Positions 35,716 to 51,671 of a stretch of 64,000 nt of DNA are shown piece after piece. The notes beneath the pieces were generated by a model. The model ran no database searches. It saw nothing but the letters and a program-made list of their open reading frames with translations, and was not told the DNA's origin. How positions within the stretch are numbered: the first letter of the stretch is position 1; every line of letters begins with the position of its first letter. Source of the stretch: Escherichia phage Ecwhy_1. The stretch is taken from sequence record MH791411.1, one strand, 5' to 3'. The translations under genes and the position numbers were made by a program.

Positions 35716-35718
35716 TAC

Positions 35719-37668: not shown

Positions 37669-38073
37669 TTAGATAACCTGGCGGCGTTTACTGTATACTG
37701 TTACACGATTACCCTTACGATCATGTCGGATCTCTTTCTGGTTGCGAATCAGTTCACTTGGACGCTTAAGGTTTGCCAGGTGATCCGCGTGAGTCCATGC
37801 GGTGTGGTTTACCTGTACTTTGATATCAGAATCAGCGATAAACTCATCTTGTGCGTCAAGTATTGCCGCCAGCATATCCGCTCGTTTTAGTTCTGCTGCT
37901 GTCAGTACTGGCTCAGGTGAATTCACAATATCAGAGATTTCTTTGAACTGTACGGCCCAGCGTTGACCTTTCGTTGCATCTTTGCCCATGTCTTTAAATG
38001 CTGCTCCTTCCTCGCGTGCAACAATACGGGCAGCTTCACGGGTAGCGTAGAATTTAGTAATCATGGTATACAT
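37669..38073 (-). CDS. hypothetical protein (paralog of 51079..51342)
   Basis: shared KFYATREAARI ... FKDMG ... RWA ... DRKGNRVTVY; start may be M4. Confidence 0.55.
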   Translation of the reverse strand: MYTMITKFYATREAARIVAREEGAAFKDMGKDATKGQRWAVQFKEISDIVNSPEPVLTAAELKRADMLAAILDAQDEFIADSDIKVQVNHTAWTHADHLANLKRPSELIRNQKEIRHDRKGNRVTVYSKRRQVI

Positions 38074-38159
38074 CCTATTAGTTGAGTTAGTACTACAAGT
38101 TAGAGTCTATTATAAAGTACTATCTGGGCAATGTCAAATAGTACTTTAAATGGATTCTA

Positions 38160-38483
38160 TTACATGTCTTTCTTACGTTTTACATCGTGGTAGCGAACTG
38201 TTATTTCTTTGTTGATCTCTTCCTCGATGCGATGAATAACTTTTTCTTTCGGGTTGAAACCTATAACGGTTTCTTTAATGATCTCCAAGCCCGTGTATTC
38301 GCCTTGTGTACCGTAACCGTATGTAAAGGTTTCGTGTCCCAGGTCTTCCCAGCGGTCGCCAATTAACGCAGACACGTAGCAAGAGTGGTAAGTATTGCCG
38401 TGTGAATCAGTCCACCGATTAACGTTAATGTCAAAGGAGGTTACAATTTTCAATTCTACTTTCTGGGCAAGGATCATAGCCAT
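38160..38483 (-). CDS. hypothetical protein (paralog of 45003..45326)
   Basis: shared RWTDSxGNTYHSC ... FTYGY ... VKRKKD. Confidence 0.55.
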   Translation of the reverse strand: MAMILAQKVELKIVTSFDINVNRWTDSHGNTYHSCYVSALIGDRWEDLGHETFTYGYGTQGEYTGLEIIKETVIGFNPKEKVIHRIEEEINKEITVRYHDVKRKKDM

Positions 38484-38570
38484 TTTTATTTCTCTCTCTT
38501 TGTTAGGAGGGGAACCATTCCCCTCGCTTGATGTAAACTATTATACAGTACTAAGATACTTTGTCAATAC

Positions 38571-38753
38571 TTATTTTTTGGAAAGTTTACGCATTAATTC
38601 TACGCTTTCTTGTGAACGTTTTGCTACCTGGCAAGCTGTATGGGCAGTAAACATTTTTGTATAGTCTGACGCTTTGCCACCGAACCGAGCGGCACGTTCA
38701 CGGGCACTTGGAACTAATACTATTTCTTTATTACAGATAGTGCACTTAGCCAT
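38571..38753 (-). CDS. small Cys-rich protein (possible zinc ribbon)
   Basis: trimmed to MAKCTICNK; CxxC ... HTAC spacing. Confidence 0.4.
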   Translation of the reverse strand: MAKCTICNKEIVLVPSARERAARFGGKASDYTKMFTAHTACQVAKRSQESVELMRKLSKK

Positions 38754-38841
38754 TTTTATTTCTCTCTCTTTGTTAGGAGGGGAACCGTTTCCCCTCACTT
38801 GATGTAAACTATTATACAGTACTAAGATACTTTGTCAATAC

Positions 38842-39117
38842 TTAAGTATTGTAAATGTCGTGAATAGTGATAAAGTTTTTACGACCGTAAACATGTAAAT
38901 CAGTATCAATGTAGTGCTTATCAAGTACATCCTCGACGCTTAAAGACGTGTCGTGAATATCTTCATAAAATTGTGGATCAACAATCGTGCTTAAGTCATC
39001 TGGCGTTAACTTATCGTTAAGGCATTGAACCGCCTGGATATCTGCTTCACGTTTCCATTGTTCCAGATTAGTAGTCAGTACTTGCTCGATTTCGTTAGCT
39101 GTAAGTAAAGTCCGCAT
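38842..39117 (-). CDS. hypothetical protein
   Basis: 91-aa ORF preceded by duplicated tandem-promoter leader. Confidence 0.45.
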   Translation of the reverse strand: MRTLLTANEIEQVLTTNLEQWKREADIQAVQCLNDKLTPDDLSTIVDPQFYEDIHDTSLSVEDVLDKHYIDTDLHVYGRKNFITIHDIYNT

Positions 39118-39578
39118 TTTAATGTTTCCTTATCAGTGGTTGATGTAAGTATTATACTCGTTTACTTTCTATTGTCAAACTATTTTATCAGGGGAGTTTT
39201 TCGTATGTCTTACTCCTGGACTACTTAACGGGGTTACTTATTTCGTTCCCCGTCCTGATGTAAAACATTATACTTGATTCTAAGTACAATGCAAGTACTT
39301 TTTTAAAAATAGTTTTCAGTACTAGCCACCAGCAAACAATAGATACATTTATGCACCCTGTGGGCTAATTTGTTTCTATGCGTATATAATAGCAAAGGGA
39401 CTGACCGGAGTCAATCCCTTTTTCAAATATTTTTAAACTTCTTTCGGGTTGCGATATGTGATAGCGTTCGGGTACATTTGTTTAATGTTATTCCATGCCT
39501 GGTTAACATTATAACCACTTGATCGAATCAGTTGGTTATTACCGACACCTTGAAACACTACTTCAAATAAGAATTCTT

Positions 39579-39752
39579 TCATGCTTTCACCTCTCGATCT
39601 GCTTTGCCTTTACGCCAGGCCGTTGCTAATTGTTCGCGTTGCCATAAGTCGAGTGATACGTAAAGTTTTGCATTATCACCCTTCGGATATTCGCCAGTAG
39701 TACCAATCCGATAAAACAGATCTTTCAGTACTGTTAATTCTACCTGGACCAT
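39579..39752 (-). CDS. hypothetical small protein
   Basis: trimmed to MVQVELTVLK. Confidence 0.4.
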   Translation of the reverse strand: MVQVELTVLKDLFYRIGTTGEYPKGDNAKLYVSLDLWQREQLATAWRKGKADREVKA

Positions 39753-39839
39753 TATACTTTCCTCTTTGTTAGGAGGGGAACTATTCCCCTTCCGATATAA
39801 AACATTATACACTTTATTCAGTACTGTGCAAGTACTTTT

Positions 39840-40052
39840 TTAATCTTTCAGCCAATGATCCTGAATGAATTTTTCACCGGAACCTTGCTGCATTGATTGT
39901 AACAGACGTTCGCGATGAGCGGCGGCGAATTGCTCAGTACTATGCGTTACACCTGGTTGATATCTGGATTCACCATTTGGGGCGATGTATTGTACATCCC
40001 ACGGTTTTTCGTTAGTATCAGACCATTTACGAACGATTAGTTGACCTTGCAT
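39840..40052 (-). CDS. hypothetical small protein
   Basis: 70-aa ORF, cassette upstream. Confidence 0.45.
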   Translation of the reverse strand: MQGQLIVRKWSDTNEKPWDVQYIAPNGESRYQPGVTHSTEQFAAAHRERLLQSMQQGSGEKFIQDHWLKD

Positions 40053-40135
40053 TTTTCTTTCCTCTTAGTGGGGAGAATCATTTCTCCCCTTCATGTAAAC
40101 TATTATACAGTACTGGATTGCATTGTCAATAGTTT

Positions 40136-40459
40136 TTATTCACCTTGTTTGAATATAGTTTTCTCCATTGATTCCATGATTGCAACCAATACAGCATGGA
40201 TCTCACTTAACGCGGCATCACTAAAAGCATTAATGAATAGGCAATCATTCTCGCGAATATTTTTAATGTACTTATCAGCAGTGGTTGCGAATTCATTCAA
40301 CGGCAGATCAAATGCTTTATCCCATAATGGATGGCGTAACTGTAACAGTACTGGATTATCACGATCACCAGGGGAAAACGTACCAGTGATGAAACATACG
40401 CCCGGAATACTTTCGAACTGGCAACGGACTTCCTTTGTGATAGTAGTATGAATGTACAT
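40136..40459 (-). CDS. hypothetical protein
   Basis: 107-aa ORF. Confidence 0.45.
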   Translation of the reverse strand: MYIHTTITKEVRCQFESIPGVCFITGTFSPGDRDNPVLLQLRHPLWDKAFDLPLNEFATTADKYIKNIRENDCLFINAFSDAALSEIHAVLVAIMESMEKTIFKQGE

Positions 40460-40486
40460 TTATTGTTATCCTCTATTAAATTAATA

Positions 40487-40675
40487 TTACAGTTTATGAA
40501 TTAATTCTTTATCTAAGCGATAGCGTACATTATTAATGGTAACAGCATTATTTTTAATGCTACGCTGTACGGGTCCACCAGCAATAACAAACGTTGCTTT
40601 ATTGCCCCGAACAATGATAGCACTTCCAGGATTACCGAAATCATCTTGTACTAAAATACTTGATAAGTTTTCCAT
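40487..40675 (-). CDS. hypothetical small protein
   Basis: 62-aa ORF, cassette upstream. Confidence 0.4.
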   Translation of the reverse strand: MENLSSILVQDDFGNPGSAIIVRGNKATFVIAGGPVQRSIKNNAVTINNVRYRLDKELIHKL

Positions 40676-40753
40676 TTTTATTTCCTCTTAGTAGGGGAAG
40701 ATGTTTCCCCTTGATGCAAGTACTATAACAGTACTGAAAACTAAATGCAAGTA

Positions 40754-41110
40754 CTATGATAAAATCATGATAGGATATTCACTATCTATCAATACCTCGA
40801 ATCCGAAACCTTCGTACCATTCTTTAAGATTAAAGGCGTTATCTTCTCCCGTATCGCATTCTAAGATGATACAATCTGAATCATCGGCGGCATCAATAAA
40901 GGCATTCATTAATTCGTTACCTTCACCATTGCCCCGACTATCAGGATCAACATAAAGAGAATCAATAAACGCTACACGGTCATAATCAAGATCCGGTGCA
41001 ATGATTCCACGTTTAACAAACCAGTACTGCAATTGTGCTACTTTGCCCTGTACTTGATAGCCAGTGATCTCGCCATTGTCAGTAGTACGCGTGATATGTT
41101 GTATTCCCAT
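40754..41110 (-). CDS. GNAT-family N-acetyltransferase-like protein
   Basis: motif-A-like VDPDSRGNGEGNELM and motif-B-like WYEGFGFE; short (118 aa). Confidence 0.45.
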   Translation of the reverse strand: MGIQHITRTTDNGEITGYQVQGKVAQLQYWFVKRGIIAPDLDYDRVAFIDSLYVDPDSRGNGEGNELMNAFIDAADDSDCIILECDTGEDNAFNLKEWYEGFGFEVLIDSEYPIMILS

Positions 41111-41173
41111 GATTACTATCCTCAGTTAAGATATAAAACATTATACACTATCTTTCAGTACTGTCAATACTTT

Positions 41174-41431
41174 TTATCTCATAGATCTATGCCAACAATT
41201 ACGCGGATCTCTTTTAAAAGTACTATCATGATCCTCCTGGCAAGTAATACAATACATGCACCCTATAACGGCCTGGCGTCGATTCTCAGGGATTTTATCG
41301 CCGCAGTCGAGGCAATGTACAAGTGATTCTCTTTGTGCGTTAATTTGCTTTCTAGCGTGGTTAACGGCGGCCTGAATCACTGCATGAATCTCGTCTTGTT
41401 CGGCCCCGTCTTTCGCGTATCCTACTGCCAT
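41174..41431 (-). CDS. TraR/DksA-family C4 zinc-finger protein
   Basis: CLDCGDKIPENRRQAV ... CITCQ matches CxxC ... IP..RR ... CxxC signature. Confidence 0.6.
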   Translation of the reverse strand: MAVGYAKDGAEQDEIHAVIQAAVNHARKQINAQRESLVHCLDCGDKIPENRRQAVIGCMYCITCQEDHDSTFKRDPRNCWHRSMR

Positions 41432-41594
41432 TATTTTAACCTCATTATAAAAATACTATAGTACTGTAATGCTACAATAATACTACTAGTGTTTATCTTA
41501 TTCAAACCATATGATACTACATATCCACCAGCATTACCACGAATAGTAACGCCTTTGTACTGTCTATATAAATTCAACTGCGTATATTGCCTTT

Positions 41595-41665
41595 GATCAA
41601 GAATTGATCAGAATTATACGCCTTATGCTAAATTGATCCAGTACTTTTTTGATCATTTATTGATC
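41595..41665. repeat. cluster of five TTGATC(A) repeats (5 GATC sites in 71 bp)
   Basis: GATC at 41595, 41606, 41635, 41651, 41662; in long leader upstream of TraR-like gene. Confidence 0.5.
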
Positions 41666-41760
41666 GATATTATATAGTTACATTTGTGCACCCTATGGGT
41701 TAGTGACGTTCTCGTCTTGATGTAAGTATTATGCCAGTACTGGAGGATATTGTCAATAGA

Positions 41761-41964
41761 TTATTTTAATTTTTTTCTGTCATTGATTAATGCTTTCAGT
41801 ACTATACTAATAACTTGCAATGATTCATCAATGACAATGAAATTATTCTCTTTCATTAGATGATAGTTACCATTGATTGTATATTCTAACGAGTACTGTT
41901 TACGTTTAATTTTTGATAATGTTTCTATTTGTTTTTGTACTGATTTCATGCTAATCATTGTCAA
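41761..41964 (-). CDS. hypothetical small protein
   Basis: 67-aa ORF. Confidence 0.4.
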   Translation of the reverse strand: MTMISMKSVQKQIETLSKIKRKQYSLEYTINGNYHLMKENNFIVIDESLQVISIVLKALINDRKKLK

Positions 41965-42063
41965 ACGTCCTGTAACGCATTCTAACGAGATAAACGGTTT
42001 AGTACTGGCATTGTATAGGGTAAATGATTAAAGCCCACCAGCGTTAACCAGTGGGCTATAATA

Positions 42064-42207
42064 TTACATCTTGCGGATAATCTTAACAGTATCTTTCACC
42101 GATTTACCGTTTTGCTGACATTGCTCGATCATCGCGTATTGTTCTGCGGTCAGATCCTCGCCAGTTTTTGCCAGTACTGCGTCGATGAATGAATCCAGTG
42201 CGATCAT
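42064..42207 (-). CDS. hypothetical small protein (47 aa)
   Basis: hand-translated ATG..TAA ORF; GCCCAC/GTGGGC terminator hairpin directly downstream. Confidence 0.35.
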   Translation of the reverse strand: MIALDSFIDAVLAKTGEDLTAEQYAMIEQCQQNGKSVKDTVKIIRKM

Positions 42208-42297
42208 TTTATTTCTCTCTTAGGTTAAGTTAACTACTGTTTATAAAACTTATTATACAGTACTATCAATCTATGTCAATAGTACTGGTAATATATT

Positions 42298-42477
42298 TTA
42301 GCGGTAGTCGTCGTATGCTTTATTCACCTGGCGAATATAACTTTCAAAGGCTTCGTCTACCGTTTCATACTCCCGAACATAATCACCATATGAAACTACA
42401 TACATACCTTTTTGATCTTCAAACGTCATGATGATAGAATCCAGACCAACGATTTCAGTTTTTGCGATGATAGCCAT
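42298..42477 (-). CDS. hypothetical small protein (59 aa)
   Basis: hand-translated ATG..TAA ORF in cassette-like spacing. Confidence 0.35.
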   Translation of the reverse strand: MAIIAKTEIVGLDSIIMTFEDQKGMYVVSYGDYVREYETVDEAFESYIRQVNKAYDDYR

Positions 42478-42560
42478 TTTTTAATTCCTTAGTAGTGTAG
42501 TTGATAAAAGTTATTATGTCAGTACTATCAAACTATGTCAATAGTACTGTGATAATATTT

Positions 42561-42773
42561 TTAGTTAATGATAGTCAGTGTAAAATTGTAATCACCGCAG
42601 CGATATAGCACGTTATTCCCAAATGTCCCAACTAATCGCACATCACACAAAACGCCGGTTTTTTCTTTTACTTCCTTGATACTTGTAACTCCTGTAATAT
42701 CTTTATTAAAGTATTCATGATCTGAAAATAAAACTTGTTTTGCATTTTTTAATTTCGACCGGATATTAGCCAT
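42561..42773 (-). CDS. hypothetical small protein
   Basis: 70-aa ORF with hairpin leader. Confidence 0.45.
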   Translation of the reverse strand: MANIRSKLKNAKQVLFSDHEYFNKDITGVTSIKEVKEKTGVLCDVRLVGTFGNNVLYRCGDYNFTLTIIN

Positions 42774-42869
42774 TTTGTTTTCTCTCTCTGTTAGTGGGGA
42801 GAAGTTTTTCTCCCCTTGATGTAAACTATTATACAGTACTATAATCTATTGTCAAACTATTTTTTTATA

Positions 42870-43211
42870 TTATTCGAAATCTTCTGGACCGGACTGATAA
42901 TCATCTTCACCGTATGCACTTTCTAACCGCTCGCCAGTGTGATCATCAGTTAGTGAGTCATCCTCATAGTTCACGTCTACGCCAGTGATGTAAAACTGGC
43001 TATCGTCTGGATCATTGAAATTAATTTTCTGTATGTTTACAATAACTGTATTGATGCCCAGGACACCGCCATCAGCCGTTACAAAGTACTGATAGTTTTC
43101 GCAACCGCCTGAATTGAAACCGTAATTAATTTCGGCCCGACCATCATTTAAACGCAGTGCCTGGGCGATGATTTCGTTTTCAAAGTTAGATTGAGCAATT
43201 GAGATAGTCAT
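42870..43211 (-). CDS. hypothetical acidic protein
   Basis: trimmed to MTISIAQSNF; acidic C-terminus. Confidence 0.45.
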   Translation of the reverse strand: MTISIAQSNFENEIIAQALRLNDGRAEINYGFNSGGCENYQYFVTADGGVLGINTVIVNIQKINFNDPDDSQFYITGVDVNYEDDSLTDDHTGERLESAYGEDDYQSGPEDFE

Positions 43212-43420
43212 GATTTGTTTCCTTATTACCAGGGGAAACCGTTTCCCCCTCTCGATGTAAAACATTATACGCTTATTGAGATAGTTTGCAAGTACTTTCT
43301 ACAAATACTTTTAAAATAGTTTTCAGTACTCAATACTCATATAATAGATACACTTATGCACCCTGTGGGCTAGTGAGCTATCTCTCAATGAATATATAAT
43401 AGCAAAATGGCTGACCGGAG

Positions 43421-43576
43421 TCAACCACTTTTTTCATTTATTTTTAGCTTTTAGAATCGCCGCCTTTCGCGTCATGCCTTGCTTGATGTATTCTTGTACT
43501 TTCGCTTTACGTGCATTCGCTTTATTTGCTTTCGTAAATGCCGAACAACTTTTATAGTTTAAACCTGTTGGATTCA
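43421..43576 (-). CDS. small basic protein (about 51 aa)
   Basis: hand-translated; Lys/Arg-rich; directly follows TM-peptide ORF; coordinates +/-1. Confidence 0.3.
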
Positions 43577-43667
43577 TTTAAATCACCATAAAGAATAGAT
43601 AGGTTACTAACAACGCCGCGATCAATGCACCGACCAGGGCCGAACTATAGTAAGCTAATGTTTTCAT
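43577..43667 (-). CDS. small hydrophobic peptide (about 29 aa, single TM helix)
   Basis: MKTLAYYSSALVGALIAALLVTYLFFMVI; ATGA overlap with upstream stop; coordinates +/-1. Confidence 0.3.
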
Positions 43668-43816
43668 TTTTTAGCCTGAAAGTAATGTTTAATTTGAGCG
43701 GCGGTCAGTGCACAATTACGCAGGAAGTTTTCTGTATAACTGCGGCGAGTACTGAAAGAGAATTGACCTTTGCCGTTACCGATAGTAACATCAAACCGAG
43801 CGTTGTATTGTTTCAT
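43664..43816 (-). CDS. hypothetical small protein
   Basis: trimmed to MKQYNARFDV after hairpin leader. Confidence 0.4.
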   Translation of the reverse strand: MKQYNARFDVTIGNGKGQFSFSTRRSYTENFLRNCALTAAQIKHYFQAKK

Positions 43817-43897
43817 TTTGATTCTCCTGTTATTGGGGAGAATCATTTCTCCCCTTCATGTAAAACATTATACAGTACTAAAAACTAATTGCAAGTA

Positions 43898-44044
43898 CTA
43901 TTTTTTAGATTTACGCAAACTTTCTACCATCTCAGGAGTAAGGCCCGGCGGGTAGGAAACTACTTCATCAACGAAACGTAAAGGGAATACCCCAGCGAAA
44001 GGTGAACGTGCTTTCTTAGTATTACTCTTTTTTGATGCTTTCAT
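43898..44044 (-). CDS. small basic protein (47 aa)
   Basis: hand-translated ATG..TAG ORF with promoter and hairpin upstream. Confidence 0.35.
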   Translation of the reverse strand: MKASKKSNTKKARSPFAGVFPLRFVDEVVSYPPGLTPEMVESLRKSKK

Positions 44045-44113
44045 TTCATATTCCTTAATTAGTGGGGAGAATCATTTCTCCCCTTCATGTAAAACATTAT
44101 ACGCGTTTAAAAA

Positions 44114-44323: not shown

Positions 44324-44328
44324 ATTAA

Positions 44329-45002: not shown

Positions 45003-45326
45003 TTAAAGATCTTTTTTGCGTTTAACATTCTGTACAGTACAATGCAACGGGATATTAAGATCATTGCACAAACGAGTAAGGGAGGTTTCATCAGTATTAA
45101 GCCCGTCTACTGATTCCTTTAATAGATCTAACGCCGTTTGTTGATATGCATCTTCATAGCCATAAGTAAATGATTCAACCGCCAGATCATTCAAACCGTT
45201 ATCCAGTTCGACGCTTACATGACAAGAATGATAAGTATTGCCATATGAATCAGTCCAACGTTTACCGTCAACATTGATTGCACGGATTGCAGCCAGGGAA
45301 ACGGTGTTAATGATAGTTTTAGCCAT
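45003..45326 (-). CDS. hypothetical protein (paralog of 38160..38483)
   Basis: shared RWTDSYGNTYHSCHV ... FTYGY ... VKRKKD. Confidence 0.55.
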   Translation of the reverse strand: MAKTIINTVSLAAIRAINVDGKRWTDSYGNTYHSCHVSVELDNGLNDLAVESFTYGYEDAYQQTALDLLKESVDGLNTDETSLTRLCNDLNIPLHCTVQNVKRKKDL

Positions 45327-45415
45327 TTTTGTATTCCTTAAATTAATATGTTGTCTTGATAAAATCTATTATGCCAGTACTATCAAACTATGTCAATAGT
45401 ACTGTGATAATATTT

Positions 45416-45628
45416 TTACTTACTTTCTTTCGCTGCTTTGTGCGTTGCCACTGCCATAACCACATCAGCACGAACAAAGTTTTTAACCGTGTCGCTGTAA
45501 TAATTGATCGCTTCATCAATATCTGCGAACATCCGATACATACCGCACCACGATACTTTATAACCTGCTTTCACTTCTTCCAGCTTAACCAGTGATTTGT
45601 TAACTTTGATTTTAGTAATGATAGCCAT
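45416..45628 (-). CDS. hypothetical small protein
   Basis: 70-aa ORF. Confidence 0.45.
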   Translation of the reverse strand: MAIITKIKVNKSLVKLEEVKAGYKVSWCGMYRMFADIDEAINYYSDTVKNFVRADVVMAVATHKAAKESK

Positions 45629-45707
45629 TTTATTTTCCTCAGTTGTCTTGATAAAATCTATTATGCCAGTACTATCAAACTATGTCAATAGCACTGTGAT
45701 AATATTT

Positions 45708-45851
45708 TTACTTACTTTTTGCTTTCTTGATTGCTTCCACCTGGTCGGCCCATTCTTTACCCCATACTTGTAAATTATAATGGTACTGGCAAAGAGCAAC
45801 GCCCCGCTTTAAACCCGTAATAGATTTCTGACCACATTGACAAGTTTTCAT
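45708..45851 (-). CDS. small Cys/His-containing protein (47 aa)
   Basis: hand-translated ATG..TAA ORF; CQCG ... CQYH spacing; hairpin leader upstream. Confidence 0.35.
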   Translation of the reverse strand: MKTCQCGQKSITGLKRGVALCQYHYNLQVWGKEWADQVEAIKKAKSK

Positions 45852-45937
45852 TTTAGTTTCCTTGTAGTGGGGAGAACCATTTTCTCCCCTTGATGTAATG
45901 TATTATACTTTATTCGATTTACTTTGCAAGTACTTTT

Positions 45938-46165
45938 TTAATTTAATTCATCAAGGCAAAGGATACGCTCAACGCCCAAATCAGTTAAACTAATCGACGG
46001 CACTTGATAGGTTTCAATGTATGCTACACTTGCCCACTGACCGAACTCATTAACGGCCCAGGTATTCATTGCATTTTGCAATTCCGCACCTTCCTTGTTG
46101 GTAATGACTGCAACTACTTGTTCGTTGCCAGTAGTACCAGATACGCGAGTAATGATAATAGCCAT
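45938..46165 (-). CDS. hypothetical small protein
   Basis: trimmed to MAIIITRVSG. Confidence 0.4.
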   Translation of the reverse strand: MAIIITRVSGTTGNEQVVAVITNKEGAELQNAMNTWAVNEFGQWASVAYIETYQVPSISLTDLGVERILCLDELN

Positions 46166-46406
46166 TGTTTTGATTCCTTTGATTTGGAAGGAGAACCGTT
46201 TCCCCCTCTCGATGTAAAACATTATACGCTAATCTCTTAATCGTGCAAGTACTTTTTATTACTTTTTGCAAAATACTTTAAACGCTCTCAATCGCGTTCT
46301 TACAGCCTTAACGCCACCAGCTAGGGCAATGCATCAGATAATCAGTTTAATGCGTTAGAATCGTTTCTAGGCGGTGCTGGTGGCATGGTAAACGATAAAC
46401 ACAAAA

Positions 46407-46430
46407 AAGCCCACCGTTTAAGGTGGGCTA
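46407..46430 (-). terminator. rho-independent terminator
   Basis: GCCCACC ... GGTGGGC hairpin followed by T6 on minus strand. Confidence 0.65.
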
Positions 46431-46450
46431 GTGATTCAGTACTTTAATTG

Positions 46451-46933
46451 TTATGCTTCAACTTTGCGATGAGATTCGATCCATTCCTCGCGAGTCATAC
46501 CGCTGGCGTTAATCGCGTCCAGTACTACCGCAATGCAGTTACCACGCACCGGAATCAGATATTCTTCCCCGTTGTCCAGTACTACCGCTACGCGTTCCTG
46601 AATCCATTTTTTGGCTTTTACTTCTGGCTTGTCTTCCCCATACTTAACCGCCAGGGCTTTTTGTGCCATCTCTGTAACTACTTCCAGATCCAATCCAACT
46701 ACTGCCGCCTGAATACTTTCGATTGTTGCTTGTAGTTCTGCTTCACGGGCCGCCTTTGCCGCTTCAATTTCTGCCGCTTTATTTGCTTGTAGTTCTTTCG
46801 CAGTACTGTACGCGATGTTAAAATTATTGCGTACCGCTTTCATGGTATCGTTATCCAGTTCAGCCAGGATCTCAGCCGCGACGTTAGTTTCATTTGCTAC
46901 CAGTGCTTTGATGAATGATTTTACATTAGCCAT
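46451..46933 (-). CDS. hypothetical protein with Ala/Glu-rich helical segment
   Basis: trimmed to MANVKSFIK; terminator directly downstream. Confidence 0.5.
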   Translation of the reverse strand: MANVKSFIKALVANETNVAAEILAELDNDTMKAVRNNFNIAYSTAKELQANKAAEIEAAKAAREAELQATIESIQAAVVGLDLEVVTEMAQKALAVKYGEDKPEVKAKKWIQERVAVVLDNGEEYLIPVRGNCIAVVLDAINASGMTREEWIESHRKVEA

Positions 46934-47142
46934 TTTATAAATCCTCAATTAAAGTTTAGTTTACGTTTATTAGTGTATCAAAGTTTTCTCGACGTGTCCA
47001 GTTTTTCGTTCGACTTACTGGCGGTCTACTTAGTGCTCCCCGTCTTGATGTAATACATTCTACGCTTTTCTGCGGTAATGTCAACTACTTTCTTAAAACT
47101 ATTTTCAAAGTATCTCAGTACTACGATACTACAAAAACAAAA

Positions 47143-47160
47143 AAGCCCACCAGGTGGGCT
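47143..47160 (-). terminator. rho-independent terminator
   Basis: GCCCACC/GGTGGGC hairpin plus T-run on minus strand. Confidence 0.6.
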
Positions 47161-47166
47161 ATGTAC

Positions 47167-47397
47167 TTAATCAGTGAGTAAAATATTAAACACTTTACCA
47201 TTTAACGTTATTGGTGCACTGCTACCAGGCACAAGATCCGTTAGTATACCTGCAATCGCTTTATCATTGGCTACCTTTCCAGTGTCCAACAGTACTACAG
47301 TACTGATAAGATTAACGCTCGTTTCAATATCATAATGCACGGCGTTAAGTAGTTGTGTAGTACTGCTTTCGTTAAGTAAAACAATTCGCTTAGTCAT
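47167..47397 (-). CDS. hypothetical small protein
   Basis: 76-aa ORF with terminator downstream. Confidence 0.45.
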   Translation of the reverse strand: MTKRIVLLNESSTTQLLNAVHYDIETSVNLISTVVLLDTGKVANDKAIAGILTDLVPGSSAPITLNGKVFNILLTD

Positions 47398-47418
47398 GAT
47401 GTTACCCCGTAGTATCTA

Positions 47419-47718
47419 TCAACGGCAATTAATAACGCCGGTATGAGTTACTTTCTCGGTATCCATTACAGTGACCGAACCGCGTTTAGCACTGGCATCA
47501 TAATAAATTGTCGTGCTACCGTTTTCGTCTTCTTCATGGAACGGGCCGTTTTTAAATGCTTCCGGCTGGATCTCTAAATCCTTTAATACAATCTCGCCAG
47601 TTCTTTCATCGGTCATTGCAACAGTGCACTGAATGAATTTTTCACTACTTACATCTAATGACGCATTAACAGCGAAAGAGGAAACAGATAAAGCCAGGGC
47701 GATGATTGCAATTTTCAT
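47419..47718 (-). CDS. secreted/periplasmic small protein (signal peptide)
   Basis: N-terminus MKIAIIALALSVSSFAVNA: charged-hydrophobic-AxA pattern. Confidence 0.5.
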   Translation of the reverse strand: MKIAIIALALSVSSFAVNASLDVSSEKFIQCTVAMTDERTGEIVLKDLEIQPEAFKNGPFHEEDENGSTTIYYDASAKRGSVTVMDTEKVTHTGVINCR

Positions 47719-47802
47719 TTGATTATCCTTAGTTACCAGGGGAAACCGTTTCCCCTTGCGATGTAAAATATTATACAGTACTAAAAACTAATTGCAAGTA
47801 CT

Positions 47803-48039
47803 TTATGATTTTTTATAAAACATTTCAGCAGTGATATTTTTACCCGTTGGCTGTACTTTATCCAGAATTTTTTGATGCCCTGGTCGTCCAAAGGAATATG
47901 ATCCGTAAACAGTAAACCAGTAGTTACCCTCAGTGTTTACATGTACAGCACAATAAGGAACACCACGCGATTCATCACTAGTAAAGTGTGATACCGTTCC
48001 CGTTACATTCGCAGACGTTGATTTGATTTGTTCGACCAT
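47803..48039 (-). CDS. hypothetical small protein
   Basis: 78-aa ORF, cassette upstream. Confidence 0.45.
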   Translation of the reverse strand: MVEQIKSTSANVTGTVSHFTSDESRGVPYCAVHVNTEGNYWFTVYGSYSFGRPGHQKILDKVQPTGKNITAEMFYKKS

Positions 48040-48147
48040 TTTCTTATTCCTTAGTTACCAGGGGAACCGCTCCCCCTATGCAAAACATTATACGCGTTTA
48101 AAAACTAATTGCAAGTATTTTAATAAAAAGTATTTGAAAAATAGTTG

Positions 48148-48290
48148 TTGACAAGTGCATCCAGTACTGGCATAATTACTACATCAAGACGAAACAGTCA
48201 CTAACCCACCGGGTGCCGAGATCCGTCTATTAAATGATTCAGTACTGAAAAAGTAACGGGGAGTTATTATCTCCCCGTGTTGTTATTTTG
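48148..48290 (+). ncRNA. candidate small RNA / orphan plus-strand transcription unit
   Basis: TTGACA-N17-CATAAT promoter (48148-48176), no ORF, ends at bidirectional terminator hairpin CGGGGAGttattatCTCCCCG plus T-run. Confidence 0.3.
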
Positions 48291-48504
48291 TAAGGTATAA
48301 ACAGAAGTCGCCTTTATTTGCTACGCCGCCAGTGTAACGCGAGGAATAGTTAGAAACGTCCTGGACTTCTGCTATTACCAGGGTATCATCATTCAATTCG
48401 TCGCAGAAGCAAACGGCTGGATCTTGTACGCCGATTTTGTCGGCATGTTCCCGCATAGATTTAACCAGTGCTTCCAGTTGGGAAAGAGTAGTGATATTAG
48501 CCAT
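48283..48504 (-). CDS. hypothetical small protein
   Basis: trimmed to MANITTLSQL. Confidence 0.45.
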   Translation of the reverse strand: MANITTLSQLEALVKSMREHADKIGVQDPAVCFCDELNDDTLVIAEVQDVSNYSSRYTGGVANKGDFCLYLTK

Positions 48505-48588
48505 TTTATTTTCCTCATTACCAGGGAGAACCATTTCTCCCTTTGATGTAAACCATTATACAGTACTGAAAACTAATTGCAAGTACTT

Positions 48589-48777
48589 TTAATTAAATTC
48601 CATAAAATCATTTTCAACGTGCACAACAATCTGATTATTTTTAAAGGACGCAGAAAACTCTATACAATCATAAACCGCTTTTTCTGTTACCAGACTATGA
48701 GCACCAATCGGATTAATTGGGGATTGAATTGTTTCAATCTCGTTACCTTGTTCATTAACGATTAAAATATTAAACAT
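48589..48777 (-). CDS. hypothetical small protein
   Basis: 62-aa ORF, ATG verified. Confidence 0.45.
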   Translation of the reverse strand: MFNILIVNEQGNEIETIQSPINPIGAHSLVTEKAVYDCIEFSASFKNNQIVVHVENDFMEFN

Positions 48778-48816
48778 TGCCGTTACTCCTGGATAGTGTT
48801 AACTCGATATAAAGTA

Positions 48817-48999
48817 TTATACGCCTTTATTGCTTAGTGTCCAGTGATCACGCATCATACGCCCCGCACGATCCCAGCTAGTAGGCATGGGTATGCCTTG
48901 CAATTCGTTAGGGGAGATCTCGACCTCGATCCCTACATCAATAACAGTCATTCCAGCTTTCGCAGCTTGCTCGCGGATAACCTCAGATAATGTTGTCAT
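48817..48999 (-). CDS. hypothetical small protein
   Basis: 60-aa ORF. Confidence 0.4.
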   Translation of the reverse strand: MTTLSEVIREQAAKAGMTVIDVGIEVEISPNELQGIPMPTSWDRAGRMMRDHWTLSNKGV

Positions 49000-49073
49000 G
49001 ATTAAAGCTCCTGGATAGTGTTAACTCGATATAAAGTATTATACAGTACTGAAAACTAATTGCAAGTACTTTT

Positions 49074-49334
49074 TTAATATTGTTTGTCGTCGTCTTCCTC
49101 GATGAATTGACCGACGAAATGATCTACTTTCGCTTTGAGGCTTTTATAATCTTCTTCTACTTCCGTTAAACGTTCCTGGTAGTATTCCAATGCTTCAAGA
49201 TACGCCGCCTCAGCAGTTTTTGCACGCATAGCTAAATTCATTCCACGCGTTTCATCAAATAGCCAATAACCATCGGTGCACTGGCTAATAGATAATGACT
49301 TGCTTAGTACTGTATAGCTAATTACTTTACTCAT
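49074..49334 (-). CDS. hypothetical protein
   Basis: 86-aa ORF with terminator-like hairpin downstream. Confidence 0.45.
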   Translation of the reverse strand: MSKVISYTVLSKSLSISQCTDGYWLFDETRGMNLAMRAKTAEAAYLEALEYYQERLTEVEEDYKSLKAKVDHFVGQFIEEDDDKQY

Positions 49335-49391
49335 TAGATAACCCTCAGTAAAGGCGGGAACTATTACCCGCCATTATCTCAGTACTGAATA

Positions 49392-49631
49392 TTACATTCC
49401 AACCATTGCAGCACGGATCGCAGTAGTGCTATACTTAAAGCCGTCCGGCGTTGTAGTAGTACCGTTGGCTTTTAATCTGCGGTACATACATTCCGCAGCA
49501 ATATCTTTAGTTCTACTTTGTGCGATGCAACTTTGAGCAAGCCGATACAATGACTCACCGTTATTAATCCAAAGGCTTACATTCCAATGAGTTTTGTTTT
49601 TGTGTCCGTTGTAAGTTTTAGTACTAGCCAT
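49392..49631 (-). CDS. hypothetical protein (paralog of 51432..51671)
   Basis: shared GHKNKTHWNVSLWINN ... TPDGFKYSTTAIRAAMVGM. Confidence 0.55.
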   Translation of the reverse strand: MASTKTYNGHKNKTHWNVSLWINNGESLYRLAQSCIAQSRTKDIAAECMYRRLKANGTTTTPDGFKYSTTAIRAAMVGM

Positions 49632-49721
49632 TTTTAAATCCTCGTTTGAGCGGGGAACCACTCCCCGCCTCGATATAAAGTATTATACGCTTTTAAACTT
49701 AGTTTGCAAGTACTTTTTAAA

Positions 49722-50333
49722 TTAATATTCGATTGATTCCACTACGCCATCAATAACATTGAATTGATACTCGTTACCCTCAATCAGTGCCGTAATGTTT
49801 TCAGTAGTGAATTGATCCTCATATGCATTCTCTAAATCACGGTACAACTTGCGGGACAATTCACGAATAGTTTCAGTGAGTAGTTCCTCAAGCTCATTAA
49901 CTAACGTTTCTTGTTTTGCGGTTAAATCAGTGTAAGCCGATTCAATGTACCCGCTTACAGTATTCTCATGCGAGTAGTGGGAGTGCGAACGTTTTACACT
50001 CATCGCCAAATCATCTTCATTCAGCAAGTGACGGATTGAGCGATACTTAGTTAATGCTCTTACCTTGCGTAAAAACTTCACTGCGTCAACGTGGTCAGTA
50101 CTGATTGATGCACCGTCACCCTGGGACCAAAAACCACTGAATTGTATTTCAGCGTCATTAATGCCATATTCCGGTAGTACTGTTTCTTTATAGTATTCAA
50201 TTTCACTTTCAGAAAAATAATTGTCGTTTGAGTTTTTTTCACGTTCCCGAACCAGTTCGATAGCTGACGTTTGTTGTTCTGCGTTCAATTCAGAAAAAGC
50301 CATAACATAAGTAGTAGTAGTGATAGTTTTCAT
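49722..50333 (-). CDS. hypothetical protein
   Basis: 203-aa ORF; FSGFWSQGDGASI motif of unknown affiliation; tandem promoters upstream. Confidence 0.5.
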   Translation of the reverse strand: MKTITTTTYVMAFSELNAEQQTSAIELVREREKNSNDNYFSESEIEYYKETVLPEYGINDAEIQFSGFWSQGDGASISTDHVDAVKFLRKVRALTKYRSIRHLLNEDDLAMSVKRSHSHYSHENTVSGYIESAYTDLTAKQETLVNELEELLTETIRELSRKLYRDLENAYEDQFTTENITALIEGNEYQFNVIDGVVESIEY

Positions 50334-50557
50334 TTTGTAACCCTCATTCAGTAGTTGATGTAAGTATTATACGCTTTTAAAAACATTTGTCAAACTATTT
50401 TATCAGGGGAGTTTTTCGTGTGCCTTACTCCTGGGCTACTTAACGGGAAGTTACTTATTTCGTTCCCCGTCCTGATGTAAAACATTATACGCCTTTAAAC
50501 ATAGTTTGCAAGTACTTTTTAAAAATAGTTTTCAGTACTGAATAGTAAAAAAAAGTA

Positions 50558-50586
50558 TTGACAGCATTATCAAGTACTGGTATAAT
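50558..50586 (+). promoter_or_regulatory. orphan sigma70-type promoter TTGACA-N17-TATAAT
   Basis: plus strand, no ORF downstream; faces minus-strand promoter at 50702-50730. Confidence 0.5.
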
Positions 50587-50701
50587 ATACCCCATGACAA
50601 CAGCTAACCCACCGGGTGCACAATTGTAACTATACTAAACTAATTTTTCTATAGATACACTCCCGCACCCTATGGGCTACGGCTTATCTGCCAATGAATA
50701 C

Positions 50702-50730
50702 ATTATGCCAGTACTGACAAAATAAGTCAA
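50702..50730 (-). promoter_or_regulatory. sigma70-type promoter TTGACT-N17-CATAAT (convergent partner)
   Basis: read on minus strand; leader contains AGCCCATAGGGTGC. Confidence 0.5.
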
Positions 50731-50760
50731 TACCGGCAATTGTAAAGATTTGTAAACTGC

Positions 50761-50997
50761 TTATACTGCAATCGCGTCCAGGCTATAATAATAATAAGTG
50801 CCGTATTGGTGTACTTTATTACCTTTTATTTCAGTACTGAATGAATCCGAACGGTTTGCATATGATGTTAATTTAAAGTACTTTGATTTGCTGATACGTT
50901 GCCATACACCACAGATCCGCTGTAAGTAAGTAGTTTTATTCGTGGTAGTATCTTTTACGGTTTTAACTTCAGTCATATACATATTAGTCATTTTCAT
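50761..50997 (-). CDS. hypothetical small protein
   Basis: 78-aa ORF. Confidence 0.4.
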   Translation of the reverse strand: MKMTNMYMTEVKTVKDTTTNKTTYLQRICGVWQRISKSKYFKLTSYANRSDSFSTEIKGNKVHQYGTYYYYSLDAIAV

Positions 50998-51078
50998 TAC
51001 TCCAGGTTATAGGCGGGAAGAGTTCCCGCTCTCGATGTAAAACATTATACGCCATTAAACATAGTTTGCAAGTACTTT

Positions 51079-51342
51079 TTATTCAAGTACTGCAATCTTT
51101 TTAGTACGGTACACGGTCACGCGGTTGCCCTTTCGGTCGAGCTTTATTTCTACCACTCGACGCGATACACTATCGGGACTTTTTAAGGCCGCTAACCAGT
51201 ACTGTAATGATCTGGCGGTACTACGCTTTACAATGGCCCAACGTTTACCACGTTCCGATTGTACGCCCATATCTTTAAACGTTGCCCCGTCCTGGCGTGC
51301 GGCGATCCGAGCTTGTTCACGCGTCGCAAAATACTTAATTTT
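51079..51342 (-). CDS. hypothetical protein (paralog of 37669..38073)
   Basis: trimmed to MKIKYFATREQ; shared motifs with 37669..38073. Confidence 0.5.
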   Translation of the reverse strand, partial: KIKYFATREQARIAARQDGATFKDMGVQSERGKRWAIVKRSTARSLQYWLAALKSPDSVSRRVVEIKLDRKGNRVTVYRTKKIAVLE

Positions 51343-51431
51343 CATGCTGTTGCCCTTATCGTTGGTGTATGAATAAAACACTATTATAAAGTACTATCGC
51401 AAAAAAATGATAGTACTTTAAATAAATTCTA

Positions 51432-51671
51432 TTACATTCCAACCATCGCCGCACGGATCGCAGTAGTGCTATATTTGAATCCGTCCGGTGTTTTATCTTG
51501 TCCAGTCTGTTCTAAAAATAACATCATATGACGGGCCGCATCATTGCGATTAGTGCTATCGTTAATAAAGTCCTGGGCCAACCGATACAATCCCTCATCG
51601 TTATTAATCCAAAGGCTTACATTCCAATGAGTTTTGTTTTTGTGACCTAAGAACATTTTTGATTTAGCCAT
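51432..51671 (-). CDS. hypothetical protein (paralog of 49392..49631)
   Basis: trimmed to MAKSKMF; C-terminus identical to paralog. Confidence 0.55.
   Translation of the reverse strand: MAKSKMFLGHKNKTHWNVSLWINNDEGLYRLAQDFINDSTNRNDAARHMMLFLEQTGQDKTPDGFKYSTTAIRAAMVGM

What the first reader, a model, noticed from the sequence alone, without database searches (positions are those of the whole stretch)
37669..51671. Dispersed paralog pairs in the cassette region indicate cassette duplication and shuffling
Three pairs lie 7-13 kb apart with different neighbours: 38160..38483 and 45003..45326; 49392..49631 and 51432..51671 (identical C-terminal 19 residues); 37669..38073 and 51079..51342. Together with the repeated promoter/hairpin modules this suggests genes move as promoter-plus-ORF cassettes.
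Basis: seen in the sequence. Interest (0 to 1): 0.35.

Follow-up and report, generated by a model that had tools for sequence, protein, structure and literature searches.

The report
Shuffled early-gene cassettes in phage terminal repeat
The three gene pairs are real but old relatives sitting in the 22-kb terminal repeat of a jumbo E. coli phage, where about 55 tiny early genes are gained, lost and swapped by recombination between repeated promoter-hairpin units, a variant of a mechanism already described in T4-like phages.

Summary
All three paralog pairs are real (BLASTP E 7e-30, 1e-37, 8e-19). They are the only paralogs inside 32-54 kb. They are old (36-66% aa identity), and five of the six genes occur in all nine relatives compared.

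The region is the direct terminal repeat (window 31912-53864) of an Asteriusvirus (PBECO4/121Q-type, Rak2-like) jumbo coliphage. It holds about 55 small minus-strand ORFs. About 37 of them carry a near-consensus sigma-70 promoter, and about 23 of those have an 8-9 bp G/C hairpin 12 nt after the -10 and 18-25 nt before the ATG.

Comparison with nine relatives gives about 20 insertion, deletion or replacement events. Their junctions lie at cassette edges, and seven are flanked by 46-99 bp repeats that are the modules themselves. So cassette shuffling is supported.

"Duplication of promoter-plus-ORF units" is only partly supported:
- Pairs 2 and 3 share their upstream module subtype; pair 1 does not.
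- Replacements are often ORF-only between fixed modules.
- Copy 2b is 93% nt identical to a Phapecoctavirus gene but 69% to its partner 2a.
- No recent duplicate was found.

The closest known system is the PeSL of T4-like phages. Here the hairpin is in the 5'UTR, not upstream of the promoter. Interest is moderate to low.

The parts
31912..53864 (-). Direct terminal repeat (DTR) of the phage genome. It is the early-gene cassette region: about 55 small ORFs, all on the minus strand.
   Evidence: vB_Ec-M-J annotates 1-21525 as Direct Terminal Repeats. Its ends map to window 53864 and 31912, and the JP4 record joins 53864 directly to 31912. All strong promoter-module hits (nhmmer E<1e-3) lie at 32787-53509 on the minus strand, with none elsewhere in the window.
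38160..38483 (-). Paralog 1a (107 aa, phrog_6246).
   Evidence: Present at 94-100% identity in all 9 relatives.
38498..38577 (-). Module of 1a: TTGACA-N16-TATAAT (38540-38567), hairpin GAGGGGAA-TGG-TTCCCCTC (38507-38525), then SD.
   Evidence: Nearly identical to the module of the neighbouring gene 38571-38753, not to that of 1b.
45003..45326 (-). Paralog 1b (107 aa, phrog_6246).
   Evidence: In E9.1, SP27 and phAPEC6 this slot holds a third, about 33% identical 114-aa allele.
45350..45426 (-). Module of 1b: TTGACA-N17-CATAAT (45368-45396), no hairpin. A 99% identical copy lies at 45642-45718.
   Evidence: (family D12). The two copies flank a 292-bp cassette (gene 45416-45628) that is missing in four relatives.
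49392..49631 (-). Paralog 2a (79 aa, DUF7249 / phrog_871). A variable cassette.
   Evidence: Present (100% identity) in only 4 of 9 relatives. In CMSTMSU it is lost with a hairpin-to-hairpin junction. In E9.1, fEgEco12, JP4 and G17 it is replaced.
49632..49720 (-). Module of 2a: TTGCAA-N16-TATAAT (49682-49709), hairpin GGCGGGGAG-TGG-TTCCCCGCT (49649-49669), then SD.
49353..49372 (-). Promoter-less hairpin GGCGGGTAATAGTTCCCGCC just downstream of 2a. It is the other arm of the 2a deletion junction.
51432..51671 (-). Paralog 2b (79 aa, DUF7249 / phrog_871).
   Evidence: Present in all 9 relatives. Its ORF is 93% nt identical to the Phapecoctavirus phiWec188 gene but 69% to 2a.
51672..51760 (-). 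Module of 2b: TTGCAA-N16-TATAAT (51723-51750), hairpin GGTGGGGAA-TAG-TTCCCCACT (51691-51711), then SD.
   Evidence: Reciprocal best match to the module of 2a, but only narrowly ahead of the module of 50761.
37669..38064 (-). Paralog 3a (131 aa, phrog_8127).
   Evidence: In all 9 relatives. The single RaK2 homologue resembles 3a.
38065..38165 (-). Module of 3a: shared leader ATGTAATAGAATyyATTTAAAGTACTAT (38138-38165) plus TTGACA-N17-TATAAT (38109-38137). No hairpin.
51079..51345 (-). Paralog 3b (88 aa, phrog_8127), a shortened copy lacking about 45 central residues.
51346..51437 (-). Module of 3b: the same leader (51410-51437) and GATAGTACTTTATAAT -10 block (51383-51398), with a degenerate -35. 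No hairpin.
   Evidence: Reciprocal best match to the upstream region of 3a.
35163..35722 (-). Example of a module-flanked cassette. Gene 35228-35635 lies between two about 99-bp near-identical promoter-hairpin-SD modules. The 495-bp unit is absent from JP4, SP27 and phAPEC6.
48544..49076 (-). Example of a promoter-flanked two-gene cassette. The identical promoters TTGCAATTAGTTTTCAGTACTGTATAAT at 48555-48582 and 49038-49065 flank it. The 483-bp unit is absent from four relatives, with a 46-48 bp overlap at the junction.

Best explanation
Where it is. Window 31912-53864 is the long direct terminal repeat of an Asteriusvirus (Rak2-like) jumbo coliphage and carries its host-RNA-polymerase-dependent early genes. 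It is built of about 55 very small genes. Most are preceded by a stereotyped unit on the minus strand: an AT-rich/AGTACT stretch, TTGACA or TTGCAA, 16 nt, TATAAT, RTTTTACATC, an 8-9 bp G-rich/C-rich hairpin, a Shine-Dalgarno sequence and the ATG.

How it changes. These 45-100 bp units recur about 37 times in one orientation. They therefore act as portable homology. Recombination between two of them, within one genome, between the two terminal-repeat copies or concatemers, or between co-infecting phages, deletes, inserts or replaces the ORF or ORFs that lie between them. The crossover can fall in the promoter, the hairpin or the SD/ATG. Sometimes an ORF travels with 'its' promoter and sometimes it is swapped under a resident one.

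The three pairs. They are old members of three small phage protein families of unknown function (phrog_6246, DUF7249/phrog_871, phrog_8127) that this process placed at separate sites. Pair 3 most likely arose by duplication of a promoter-plus-ORF unit within the Asteriusvirus lineage. Pair 2 is a mosaic, in which 2b has been exchanged recently with Phapecoctavirus-type phages and 2a is a dispensable cassette. The origin of pair 1 (duplication or separate acquisition) cannot be resolved.

The hairpin. It has no U-tail and lies inside the predicted transcript. It is therefore inferred to be a 5'-terminal mRNA stem-loop (stabiliser or regulator site) rather than a terminator.

Shown: the anatomy, the DTR location, the paralogy and the junction structure. 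Inferred: early timing, the recombination route and the hairpin function.
For: Identity and location. Megablast gives 94-98% identity to Asteriusvirus genomes. The DTR annotation and a JP4 junction map to window 31912 and 53864. In the related phage PA5oct the DTR genes are highly transcribed early (PMC7318152). In phage CBB, RpoD-like promoters mark the early region and the DTR (PMC5259590).

Modules. There are 11 perfect 12/12 sigma-70 consensus sites on the minus strand. About 37 nhmmer hits with E<1e-3 all lie in 32787-53509 on the minus strand. About 23 hairpins of -12 to -16 kcal/mol start 12 nt after the -10 and lie 18-25 nt from the ATG; they have no T-tail and none lies in a CDS. Across the window and related loci there are 187 such hairpins with 37 different fully paired stems.

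Shuffling. Nine relatives give about 20 events. 28 of 38 breakpoints lie at cassette edges (p=2e-5). Junction repeats of 99, 85, 77-95, 46-48, 80 and 92 bp are the modules themselves. The 2a deletion joins two hairpins. Inserted DNA matches the window only at its module ends. A promoter identical to window 34643-34670 sits at a different locus in G17.

Paralogs. E-values are, families, and presence in relatives. Upstream regions are reciprocal best for pairs 2 and 3. Family 3 has two copies in Asteriusvirus and one in Klebsiella RaK2/K64-1. The ORF of 2b is 93% nt identical to phiWec188, against 71-73% for three other shared genes.

No recombinase. The larger DTR proteins give only a GNAT, a DksA/TraR zinc finger and a weak kinase-like match.
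Against: Breakpoints at gene edges are also what purifying selection on random deletions would leave. Several events show only 1-17 bp of junction homology. Pair 1 gives no support for co-movement of promoter and ORF. For pair 2 the module match is only marginally better than to a third module (56.5 vs 54.5). All modules resemble one another, so shared 5' flanks are weak evidence of co-duplication. No recent duplicate cassette was seen in any of nine relatives. No transcript data were available, so early timing, the transcription start and the hairpin role are inferred. One relative, CMSTMSU, which supplies the hairpin-hairpin junction, is an UNVERIFIED low-quality record.
Confidence: 0.7

Rival explanations
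1. The pairs are not duplicates made in this genome. They are homologous genes acquired separately from other phages (xenologs) and slotted between resident modules.
For: 2b is 91-94% aa and 93% nt identical to genes of Phapecoctavirus phages but 66% aa and 69% nt identical to 2a. The best match of 2a outside Asteriusvirus (about 71% aa) exceeds its identity to 2b. The 1b slot holds a third, about 33% identical allele in three relatives. Families 1 and 2 are widespread in unrelated phages. Pair 1 copies have unrelated module subtypes.
Against: Family 3 is confined to Rak2-like phages, with two copies only in Asteriusvirus. Its copies share a peculiar hairpin-less leader that begins at the preceding stop codon. 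2a and 2b share a 46-nt identical block with 21 consecutive identical third codon positions (permutation P about 9e-5). In that block they are closer to each other than 2b is to phiWec188, which points to exchange between the two copies within the genome.
Confidence: 0.35
2. The cassette-edge breakpoints are just the survivors of random illegitimate recombination filtered by selection. The repeated modules are ordinary promoters with no role in recombination.
For: Some junctions have 1, 11, 14 or 17 bp of homology only. The intergenic enrichment is expected under selection alone. Breakpoints are no closer to the abundant AGTACT motif than random intergenic sites.
Against: Seven events have 46-99 bp junction repeats that coincide with the modules. 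Each event removes or adds exactly one repeat unit plus the intervening ORF(s), which is the signature of homologous unequal exchange. The same junctions recur in several relatives.
Confidence: 0.15
3. The apparent duplicates are an assembly artefact of a collapsed or mis-joined terminal repeat.
For: The region is a terminal repeat. Several database records carry it once, twice or permuted.
Against: The copies are only 36-66% identical in protein. They lie inside one repeat copy and sit at the same positions in nine independent genomes.
Confidence: 0.01

Closest known systems
PeSLs (promoter-early stem-loop regulatory cassettes) of T4-like phages RB49/phi1, PST/T4 and nt-1/KVP40 (Arbiol et al. 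2010, PMC2839356; Comeau et al. 2014, PMC4122927)
   Same: Strong sigma-70-type early promoters joined to a GGGG...CCCC-type stem-loop, an SD and an ATG. They are repeated between small ORFans in a hyperplastic region. Insertions, deletions and replacements between close relatives have their junctions in these units, with crossovers in the promoter, the loop or between the -10 and the ATG.
   Different: In PeSLs the stem-loop lies upstream of the promoter and was shown to terminate transcription. Here it lies 12 nt downstream of the -10, inside the 5'UTR, and has no U-run. The host phage is a Rak2-like jumbo phage, not a T4-like one. The array fills a 22-kb terminal repeat. Mini-circles were not tested.
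Terminal-repeat early regions of Rak2-like jumbo phages (CBB, PMC5259590; PA5oct, PMC7318152)
   Same: A long DTR (22-39 kb) packed with small hypothetical genes, RpoD-like promoters and early transcription. Paralogous ORFs have been reported (22 in CBB).
   Different: Those papers, as far as I read them, do not describe the promoter-5'UTR-hairpin unit or its role at indel junctions.
Early region of Phapecoctavirus (Stephanstirmvirinae), e.g. phiWec188 LC739537
   Same: The same layout, TTGACA-N17-TAAACT/TAAGAT, then GTATyACrTAGGG, hairpin, SD, ATG, precedes small genes. It shares families 1 and 2 and three other genes with the window.
   Different: A different virus family. The promoter and stem sequences are lineage-specific. 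AGTACT is not enriched (0.4 per kb against 6 per kb).
Integron gene cassettes
   Same: An array of small, individually mobile genes in one orientation.
   Different: Integron cassettes lack promoters, carry attC sites and need an IntI integrase. Here each unit carries its own promoter. I did not search the DNA for attC sites. Pfam scans of the ten larger DTR proteins and the six paralogs gave no integrase or recombinase match.

Membership tests
PeSL regulatory cassettes (T4-like phages) | Near-consensus sigma-70 early promoter in front of small ORFs | tested here: met
   11 perfect TTGACA-N16/17-TATAAT sites plus many TTGCAA variants on the minus strand. About 37 profile hits.
PeSL regulatory cassettes (T4-like phages) | Stable G-run/C-run stem-loop forming part of the repeated unit | tested here: met
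   About 23 hairpins of -12 to -16 kcal/mol with stems such as GGGGAGAA/TTCTCCCC. 37 stem variants, all paired.
PeSL regulatory cassettes (T4-like phages) | Stem-loop placed upstream of the promoter and acting as terminator or attenuator of upstream transcription | tested here: not met
   The hairpin starts 12 nt after the -10 hexamer and lies 18-25 nt before the ATG. It has no T-run and is not called terminator-like on the minus strand. Terminator activity itself was not assayed.
PeSL regulatory cassettes (T4-like phages) | Concentration in a hyperplastic region of small non-essential ORFs | tested here: met
   All modules lie in 32787-53509. About 20 gene-content differences over about 17 kb among nine relatives of 91-99% identity.
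PeSL regulatory cassettes (T4-like phages) | Indel and replacement junctions between close relatives fall within the units | tested here: met
   Junction overlaps of 46-99 bp equal the modules. Hairpin-hairpin and SD/ATG junctions also occur. 28 of 38 breakpoints lie at cassette edges.
PeSL regulatory cassettes (T4-like phages) | Formation of excised mini-circles during infection | not testable with these tools
   Needs inverse PCR or long-read sequencing of infected cells.
Direct terminal repeat early region of Rak2-like jumbo phages | Sequence lies within the terminally repeated segment of the genome | tested here: met
   The DTR annotation of vB_Ec-M-J and a JP4 junction both map to 31912 and 53864. 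This rests on relatives, not on reads of the source phage.
Direct terminal repeat early region of Rak2-like jumbo phages | Transcribed early by host RNA polymerase | not testable with these tools
   Inferred from the sigma-70 consensus and from PA5oct RNA-seq (PMC7318152).
DUF7249 (PF23907) / phrog_871 | Profile match above the curated threshold | tested here: met
   2a scores 50.7 bits and 2b 47.4 bits against a cut-off of 27. phrog_871 E about 1e-29.
phrog_6246 (pair 1) and phrog_8127 (pair 3) | Profile match over the full length | tested here: met
   E 8e-36 and 7e-41 for pair 1; 3e-34 and 3e-26 for pair 3. No Pfam or PDB relative.
Rho-independent terminators | G/C hairpin followed by a U-run | tested here: not met
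   Not met for the promoter-proximal hairpins. Met only by separate elements at 47144-47160, 46408-46429 and 37628-37646.
Integron cassettes | attC recombination site and IntI integrase | tested here: inconclusive
   The ten larger DTR proteins and the six paralogs gave no integrase or recombinase Pfam match. Each unit has its own promoter. The remaining small ORFs were not scanned, and the DNA was not searched for attC sites.

The most novel reading that the evidence does not exclude
The promoter-5'UTR-hairpin units may be a clade-wide linker system in the terminal repeats of Rak2-like jumbo phages (Escherichia, Salmonella, Klebsiella, Erwinia, Serratia, Yersinia). Such a system would allow ORF-precise exchange of host-takeover genes within the clade and also with unrelated coliphages such as Phapecoctavirus, which use the same layout. 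The conserved hairpin, and perhaps the 13-fold over-represented AGTACT palindrome of this clade, would be recognised by a phage factor that regulates early mRNAs or promotes the exchange.
Probability: 0.15. Interest if true: 0.6.

Novelty: new variant of a known kind. Interest (0 to 1): 0.35.

Why it matters
The result extends module-mediated gene shuffling, described so far only for T4-like phages, to the terminal-repeat early region of Rak2-like jumbo phages. The unit is arranged differently here, with the hairpin inside the 5'UTR. The result also points to ORF-precise traffic of early genes between jumbo phages and 150-kb coliphages.

There are practical consequences. The region is the most variable part of therapeutic Asteriusvirus genomes and probably holds host-takeover and anti-defence genes. 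The modules are ready-made strong early promoter/5'UTR parts and natural insertion sites for engineering.

The paralog pairs themselves are ordinary.

Tried and rejected
- **AGTACT/CAGTACTG as the crossover site.** Breakpoints are no closer to it than random intergenic positions (median 33.5 vs 30.7 nt, P=0.69). Rejected.
- **Formal covariation on a MAFFT alignment of 21 hairpins.** The alignment was out of structural register and gave only a 6-pair consensus. I replaced it with a loop-anchored tally. That tally is ascertainment-biased and is not a statistical test.
- **G17_00048 as a dispersed paralog of window gene 34327-34590.** This gene replaces 2a in phage G17, and its locus carries a promoter identical to the one at window 34643-34670. 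The proteins are unrelated (E 7.6). Only the promoter is shared.
- **Inserted or replacing DNA of relatives as copies of other window cassettes.** Only the module ends match.
- **Function of the three families.** No PDB sequence relative. Pfam gives only DUF7249.
- **Known RNA families and tRNAs in the window.** None found.
- **Literature on these modules in Asteriusvirus, rV5 or Phapecoctavirus.** Nothing found.
- **Not used.** I did not run the large protein-database, structure-prediction or metagenome searches, because protein function was not decisive for the question.

Full report
**1. The observation**

- Pair 1, 38160-38483 vs 45003-45326: 39% identity over the full 107 aa, E 7e-30.
- Pair 2, 49392-49631 vs 51432-51671: 66% identity over 79 aa, E 1e-37. 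The last 19 residues are identical.
- Pair 3, 37669-38073 vs 51079-51342: 36% identity with one 45-residue gap, E 8e-19.

An all-against-all BLASTP of 154 ORFs that I called in the window finds exactly these three pairs between 32 and 54 kb. Outside that interval the window holds large tandem paralog arrays: one family of 27 and one of 26 members between 1 and 32 kb, and smaller arrays after 54 kb.

Small corrections are needed.
- Pair 2 copies are only 2.0 kb apart, not 7-13 kb.
- The probable starts are 38064 for 3a and 51345 for 3b.
- The neighbours are not wholly different. 3a follows 1a directly and 3b follows 2b directly.

**2. What the region is**

Megablast places the window in the Asteriusvirus group of about 350-kb jumbo coliphages (PBECO4, 121Q, phAPEC6, G17, fEgEco12, E9.1 and others; 94-98% identity).

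Phage vB_Ec-M-J annotates its first 21,525 bp as Direct Terminal Repeats. The two ends of that repeat map to window 53864 and 31912. The JP4 record independently joins 53864 directly to 31912. The 'cassette region' is therefore the terminal repeat, window 31912-53864.

A profile built from the promoter units finds about 37 strong hits. All are on the minus strand and all lie between 32787 and 53509. None lies elsewhere in the 64 kb.

In related jumbo phages the terminal repeat is known to carry RpoD-type promoters (CBB, PMC5259590). It is also known to be highly transcribed early (PA5oct, PMC7318152).

The few recognisable proteins are a GNAT acetyltransferase, a DksA/TraR zinc finger and a weak kinase-like protein. 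None of the proteins scanned is a recombinase.

**3. Anatomy of the repeated unit**

Read on the minus strand, the unit runs in this order:
- an AT-rich stretch, often AAAGTACT;
- TTGACA or TTGCAA;
- 16 nt, often ending AGTACTG, which gives an extended -10;
- TATAAT;
- RTTTTACATC;
- a hairpin;
- a Shine-Dalgarno sequence;
- the ATG.

Eleven sites match the sigma-70 consensus at 12 of 12 positions.

About 23 units carry an 8-9 bp hairpin of -12 to -16 kcal/mol. It begins 12 nt after the -10 hexamer and ends 18-25 nt before the start codon. None lies in a coding sequence and none has a T-run. The consensus scan does not call them terminator-like on the transcribed strand. It does call a few separate elements that way: 47144-47160, 46408-46429 and 37628-37646.

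Across the window and eleven related loci I counted 187 such hairpins with 37 different stems, all fully paired. This tally was selected for pairing, so it is descriptive only. With a start about 7 nt after the -10, the hairpin would sit at the 5' end of each mRNA. That placement is an inference.

Some units have a promoter but no hairpin (3a, 3b, 1b). A few have a hairpin but no promoter (49353-49372, 37628-37646).

**4. Duplication boundaries**

*Pair 2.* DNA similarity runs from just upstream of the -35, through the hairpin, SD and ORF, to two bases past the stop codon. It ends sharply on both sides.

*Pair 3.* Similarity begins at the stop codon of the preceding gene, with the shared leader ATGTAATAGAATyyATTTAAAGTACTAT followed by GATAGTACTTTATAATAG. 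Both copies lack a hairpin.

*Pair 1.* Only the coding core is alike. 1a has a hairpin unit, while 1b has a TTGACA-N17-CATAAT unit without a hairpin.

I compared the 100 nt upstream of all 54 genes. Pairs 2 and 3 are reciprocal best matches, though for pair 2 the margin is narrow (56.5 against 54.5). Pair 1 ranks 34th and 25th, and each of its units matches that of the physically adjacent gene instead. Even so, promoter and ORF are not always inherited together.

**5. Evidence from relatives**

I fetched the homologous region of nine Asteriusvirus genomes and chained their alignments to the window. About 20 insertion, deletion or replacement events appear in about 17 kb.

Of 38 distinct breakpoints, 28 are intergenic or within 10 nt of a CDS end, against 40% expected (binomial p = 2e-5). 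All but two are within 31 nt of a CDS end. Selection alone could produce this pattern.

The junction structure is more telling.
- The 495-bp unit 35228-35722 is flanked by 99-bp near-identical promoter-hairpin-SD units.
- 37103-37380 is flanked by 85 bp of a second promoter type.
- 45427-45718 is flanked by a 77-95 bp promoter repeat.
- 48590-49072 is flanked by the identical promoters at 48555 and 49038, with a 46-48 bp overlap.
- Two cassettes present only in relatives are flanked by 80 and 92 bp repeats.
- The 2a cassette is absent from CMSTMSU with a junction inside the two flanking hairpins (17 bp). That record is marked UNVERIFIED.

Other events are ORF-only replacements between conserved units. 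For example, window 48596-49628 (four genes, including 2a) is replaced by 159 bp in E9.1, fEgEco12 and JP4, and the right boundary falls exactly at the ATG.

DNA inserted in relatives matches the window only at its module ends. In G17, a promoter identical to window 34643-34670 sits at a different locus next to an unrelated ORF. Promoters, hairpins and ORFs can therefore each be recombined separately.

**6. History of the pairs**

1a, 2b, 3a and 3b are present in all nine relatives. 2a is present in four of them, at 100% identity. The 1b slot holds a third, about 33% identical allele in three relatives.

All three families are of unknown function: phrog_6246, DUF7249/phrog_871 and phrog_8127. 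None has a PDB relative by sequence.

*Family 3* is confined to Rak2-like phages. It has two copies in Escherichia and Salmonella Asteriusvirus and one in Klebsiella RaK2/K64-1, and that single copy resembles 3a. This fits a duplication within the Asteriusvirus lineage.

*Family 2* is widespread. 2b is 91-94% aa identical to genes of Phapecoctavirus phages, and 93% nt identical over the ORF to phiWec188. It is only 66% aa and 69% nt identical to 2a. Three other genes shared with phiWec188 are 71-73% nt identical. The high identity covers the ORF only, and the promoter in each phage is of the resident type.

2a and 2b form a mosaic.
- Nucleotides 31-81 are 94% identical, including a 46-nt identical run and 21 consecutive identical third codon positions (permutation P about 9e-5).
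- Nucleotides 82-177 are 45% identical.
- Nucleotides 178-240 are 89% identical.

This indicates sub-genic exchange between the two copies or nucleotide-level constraint. It is not simple divergence after duplication.

*Family 1* is also widespread, at 35-39% identity. Its history here is unresolved.

**7. Mechanism and comparison with what is known**

The behaviour matches the PeSL model of Arbiol et al. 2010 and Comeau et al. 2014. In that model, repeated early-promoter/stem-loop units between ORFans of hyperplastic regions serve as crossover sites for deletion, insertion and replacement.

One defining anatomical feature differs. In PeSLs the stem-loop lies upstream of the promoter and terminates incoming transcription. 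Here it lies downstream of the -10, in the 5'UTR, and has no U-run.

Two further differences are the host phage group (Rak2-like jumbo phages) and the location (the terminal repeat).

The same unit is detectable by blastn in Rak2-like phages of Salmonella, Klebsiella, Erwinia, Serratia and Yersinia, and in some 145-kb coliphages. In Klebsiella phage Muenster it lies inside the PhageTerm-predicted terminal repeat. RaK2 and phiWec188 show the same layout directly. I found no paper describing these units in Asteriusvirus, rV5-like or Phapecoctavirus phages.

**8. Verdict**

- Cassette shuffling at the repeated regulatory units is well supported.
- Duplication of promoter-plus-ORF units is plausible for pair 3, doubtful for pair 2 and untestable for pair 1.

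The phenomenon is a variant of a known kind. The paralogs themselves are ordinary, so interest is moderate to low.

Noticed in passing
whole window; densest in 31912-64000: The palindrome AGTACT is the most over-represented hexamer: 282 copies against about 21 expected. CAGTACTG occurs 69 times against 0.6 expected from shuffles. 166 of the 282 copies lie inside coding sequence. The enrichment is shared by nine Asteriusvirus relatives and RaK2 (6-7 per kb) but not by Phapecoctavirus phiWec188 (0.4 per kb). It is not the recombination breakpoint. Its function is unknown.
   Followed up: partly
window 31912 and 53864: These are the terminal-repeat boundaries inferred from two relatives. The window runs past both of them, so the source assembly is collapsed or permuted with a single repeat copy.
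   Followed up: yes
window 33307-33407, 35934-36165, 39246-39435, 43205-43446, 50348-50547: A dispersed non-coding unit of about 100-240 bp (74-88% identity). It contains a promoter unit and the 12-bp-stem hairpin AAAGGGATTGAC-TCCG-GTCAGTCCCTTT, which has its T-run on the plus strand. Promoters at 39267-39294, 50484-50511 and 47057-47084 are followed by no ORF, so they are possible small RNAs. There is no Rfam match.
   Followed up: partly
window 50558-50586, 52491-52518, 52707-52734 (+ strand): Near-consensus sigma-70 promoters pointing against the direction of all the genes, in the gene-poor stretch near the left end of the repeat. They are possible antisense or small-RNA transcripts.
   Followed up: no
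window 52962-53113: An array with an 8-nt period (units like CGTCTAGC/CATCCAGC), about 800 bp from the terminal-repeat end. It is a candidate binding-site array, for example for packaging or replication.
   Followed up: no
window 1084-25866 and 11169-31814: Two very large tandem paralog families on the minus strand, immediately inside the terminal repeat: 27 members of about 110-190 aa and 26 members of about 65-90 aa. Smaller arrays lie at 56786-57734 (5 members) and 58881-63729 (four genes of about 380 aa on the plus strand).
   Followed up: partly
window 36781-37023 and 37081-37299: Two adjacent genes share a second promoter type, TTGACAGTACTCAAnTGTTTTAGTACTAT...ACCAACACGGGnGAAACAAAATG. One of the two cassettes is missing from SP27 and E9.1, with an 85-bp junction overlap.
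   Followed up: partly
L010 (Phapecoctavirus phiWec188) 1400-5200: The early region of this unrelated 150-kb coliphage uses the same promoter, ACAT/ACGT-AGGG, hairpin, SD layout. It shares at least five small genes with the window. A family-1 gene lies directly upstream of the 2b homologue.
   Followed up: partly
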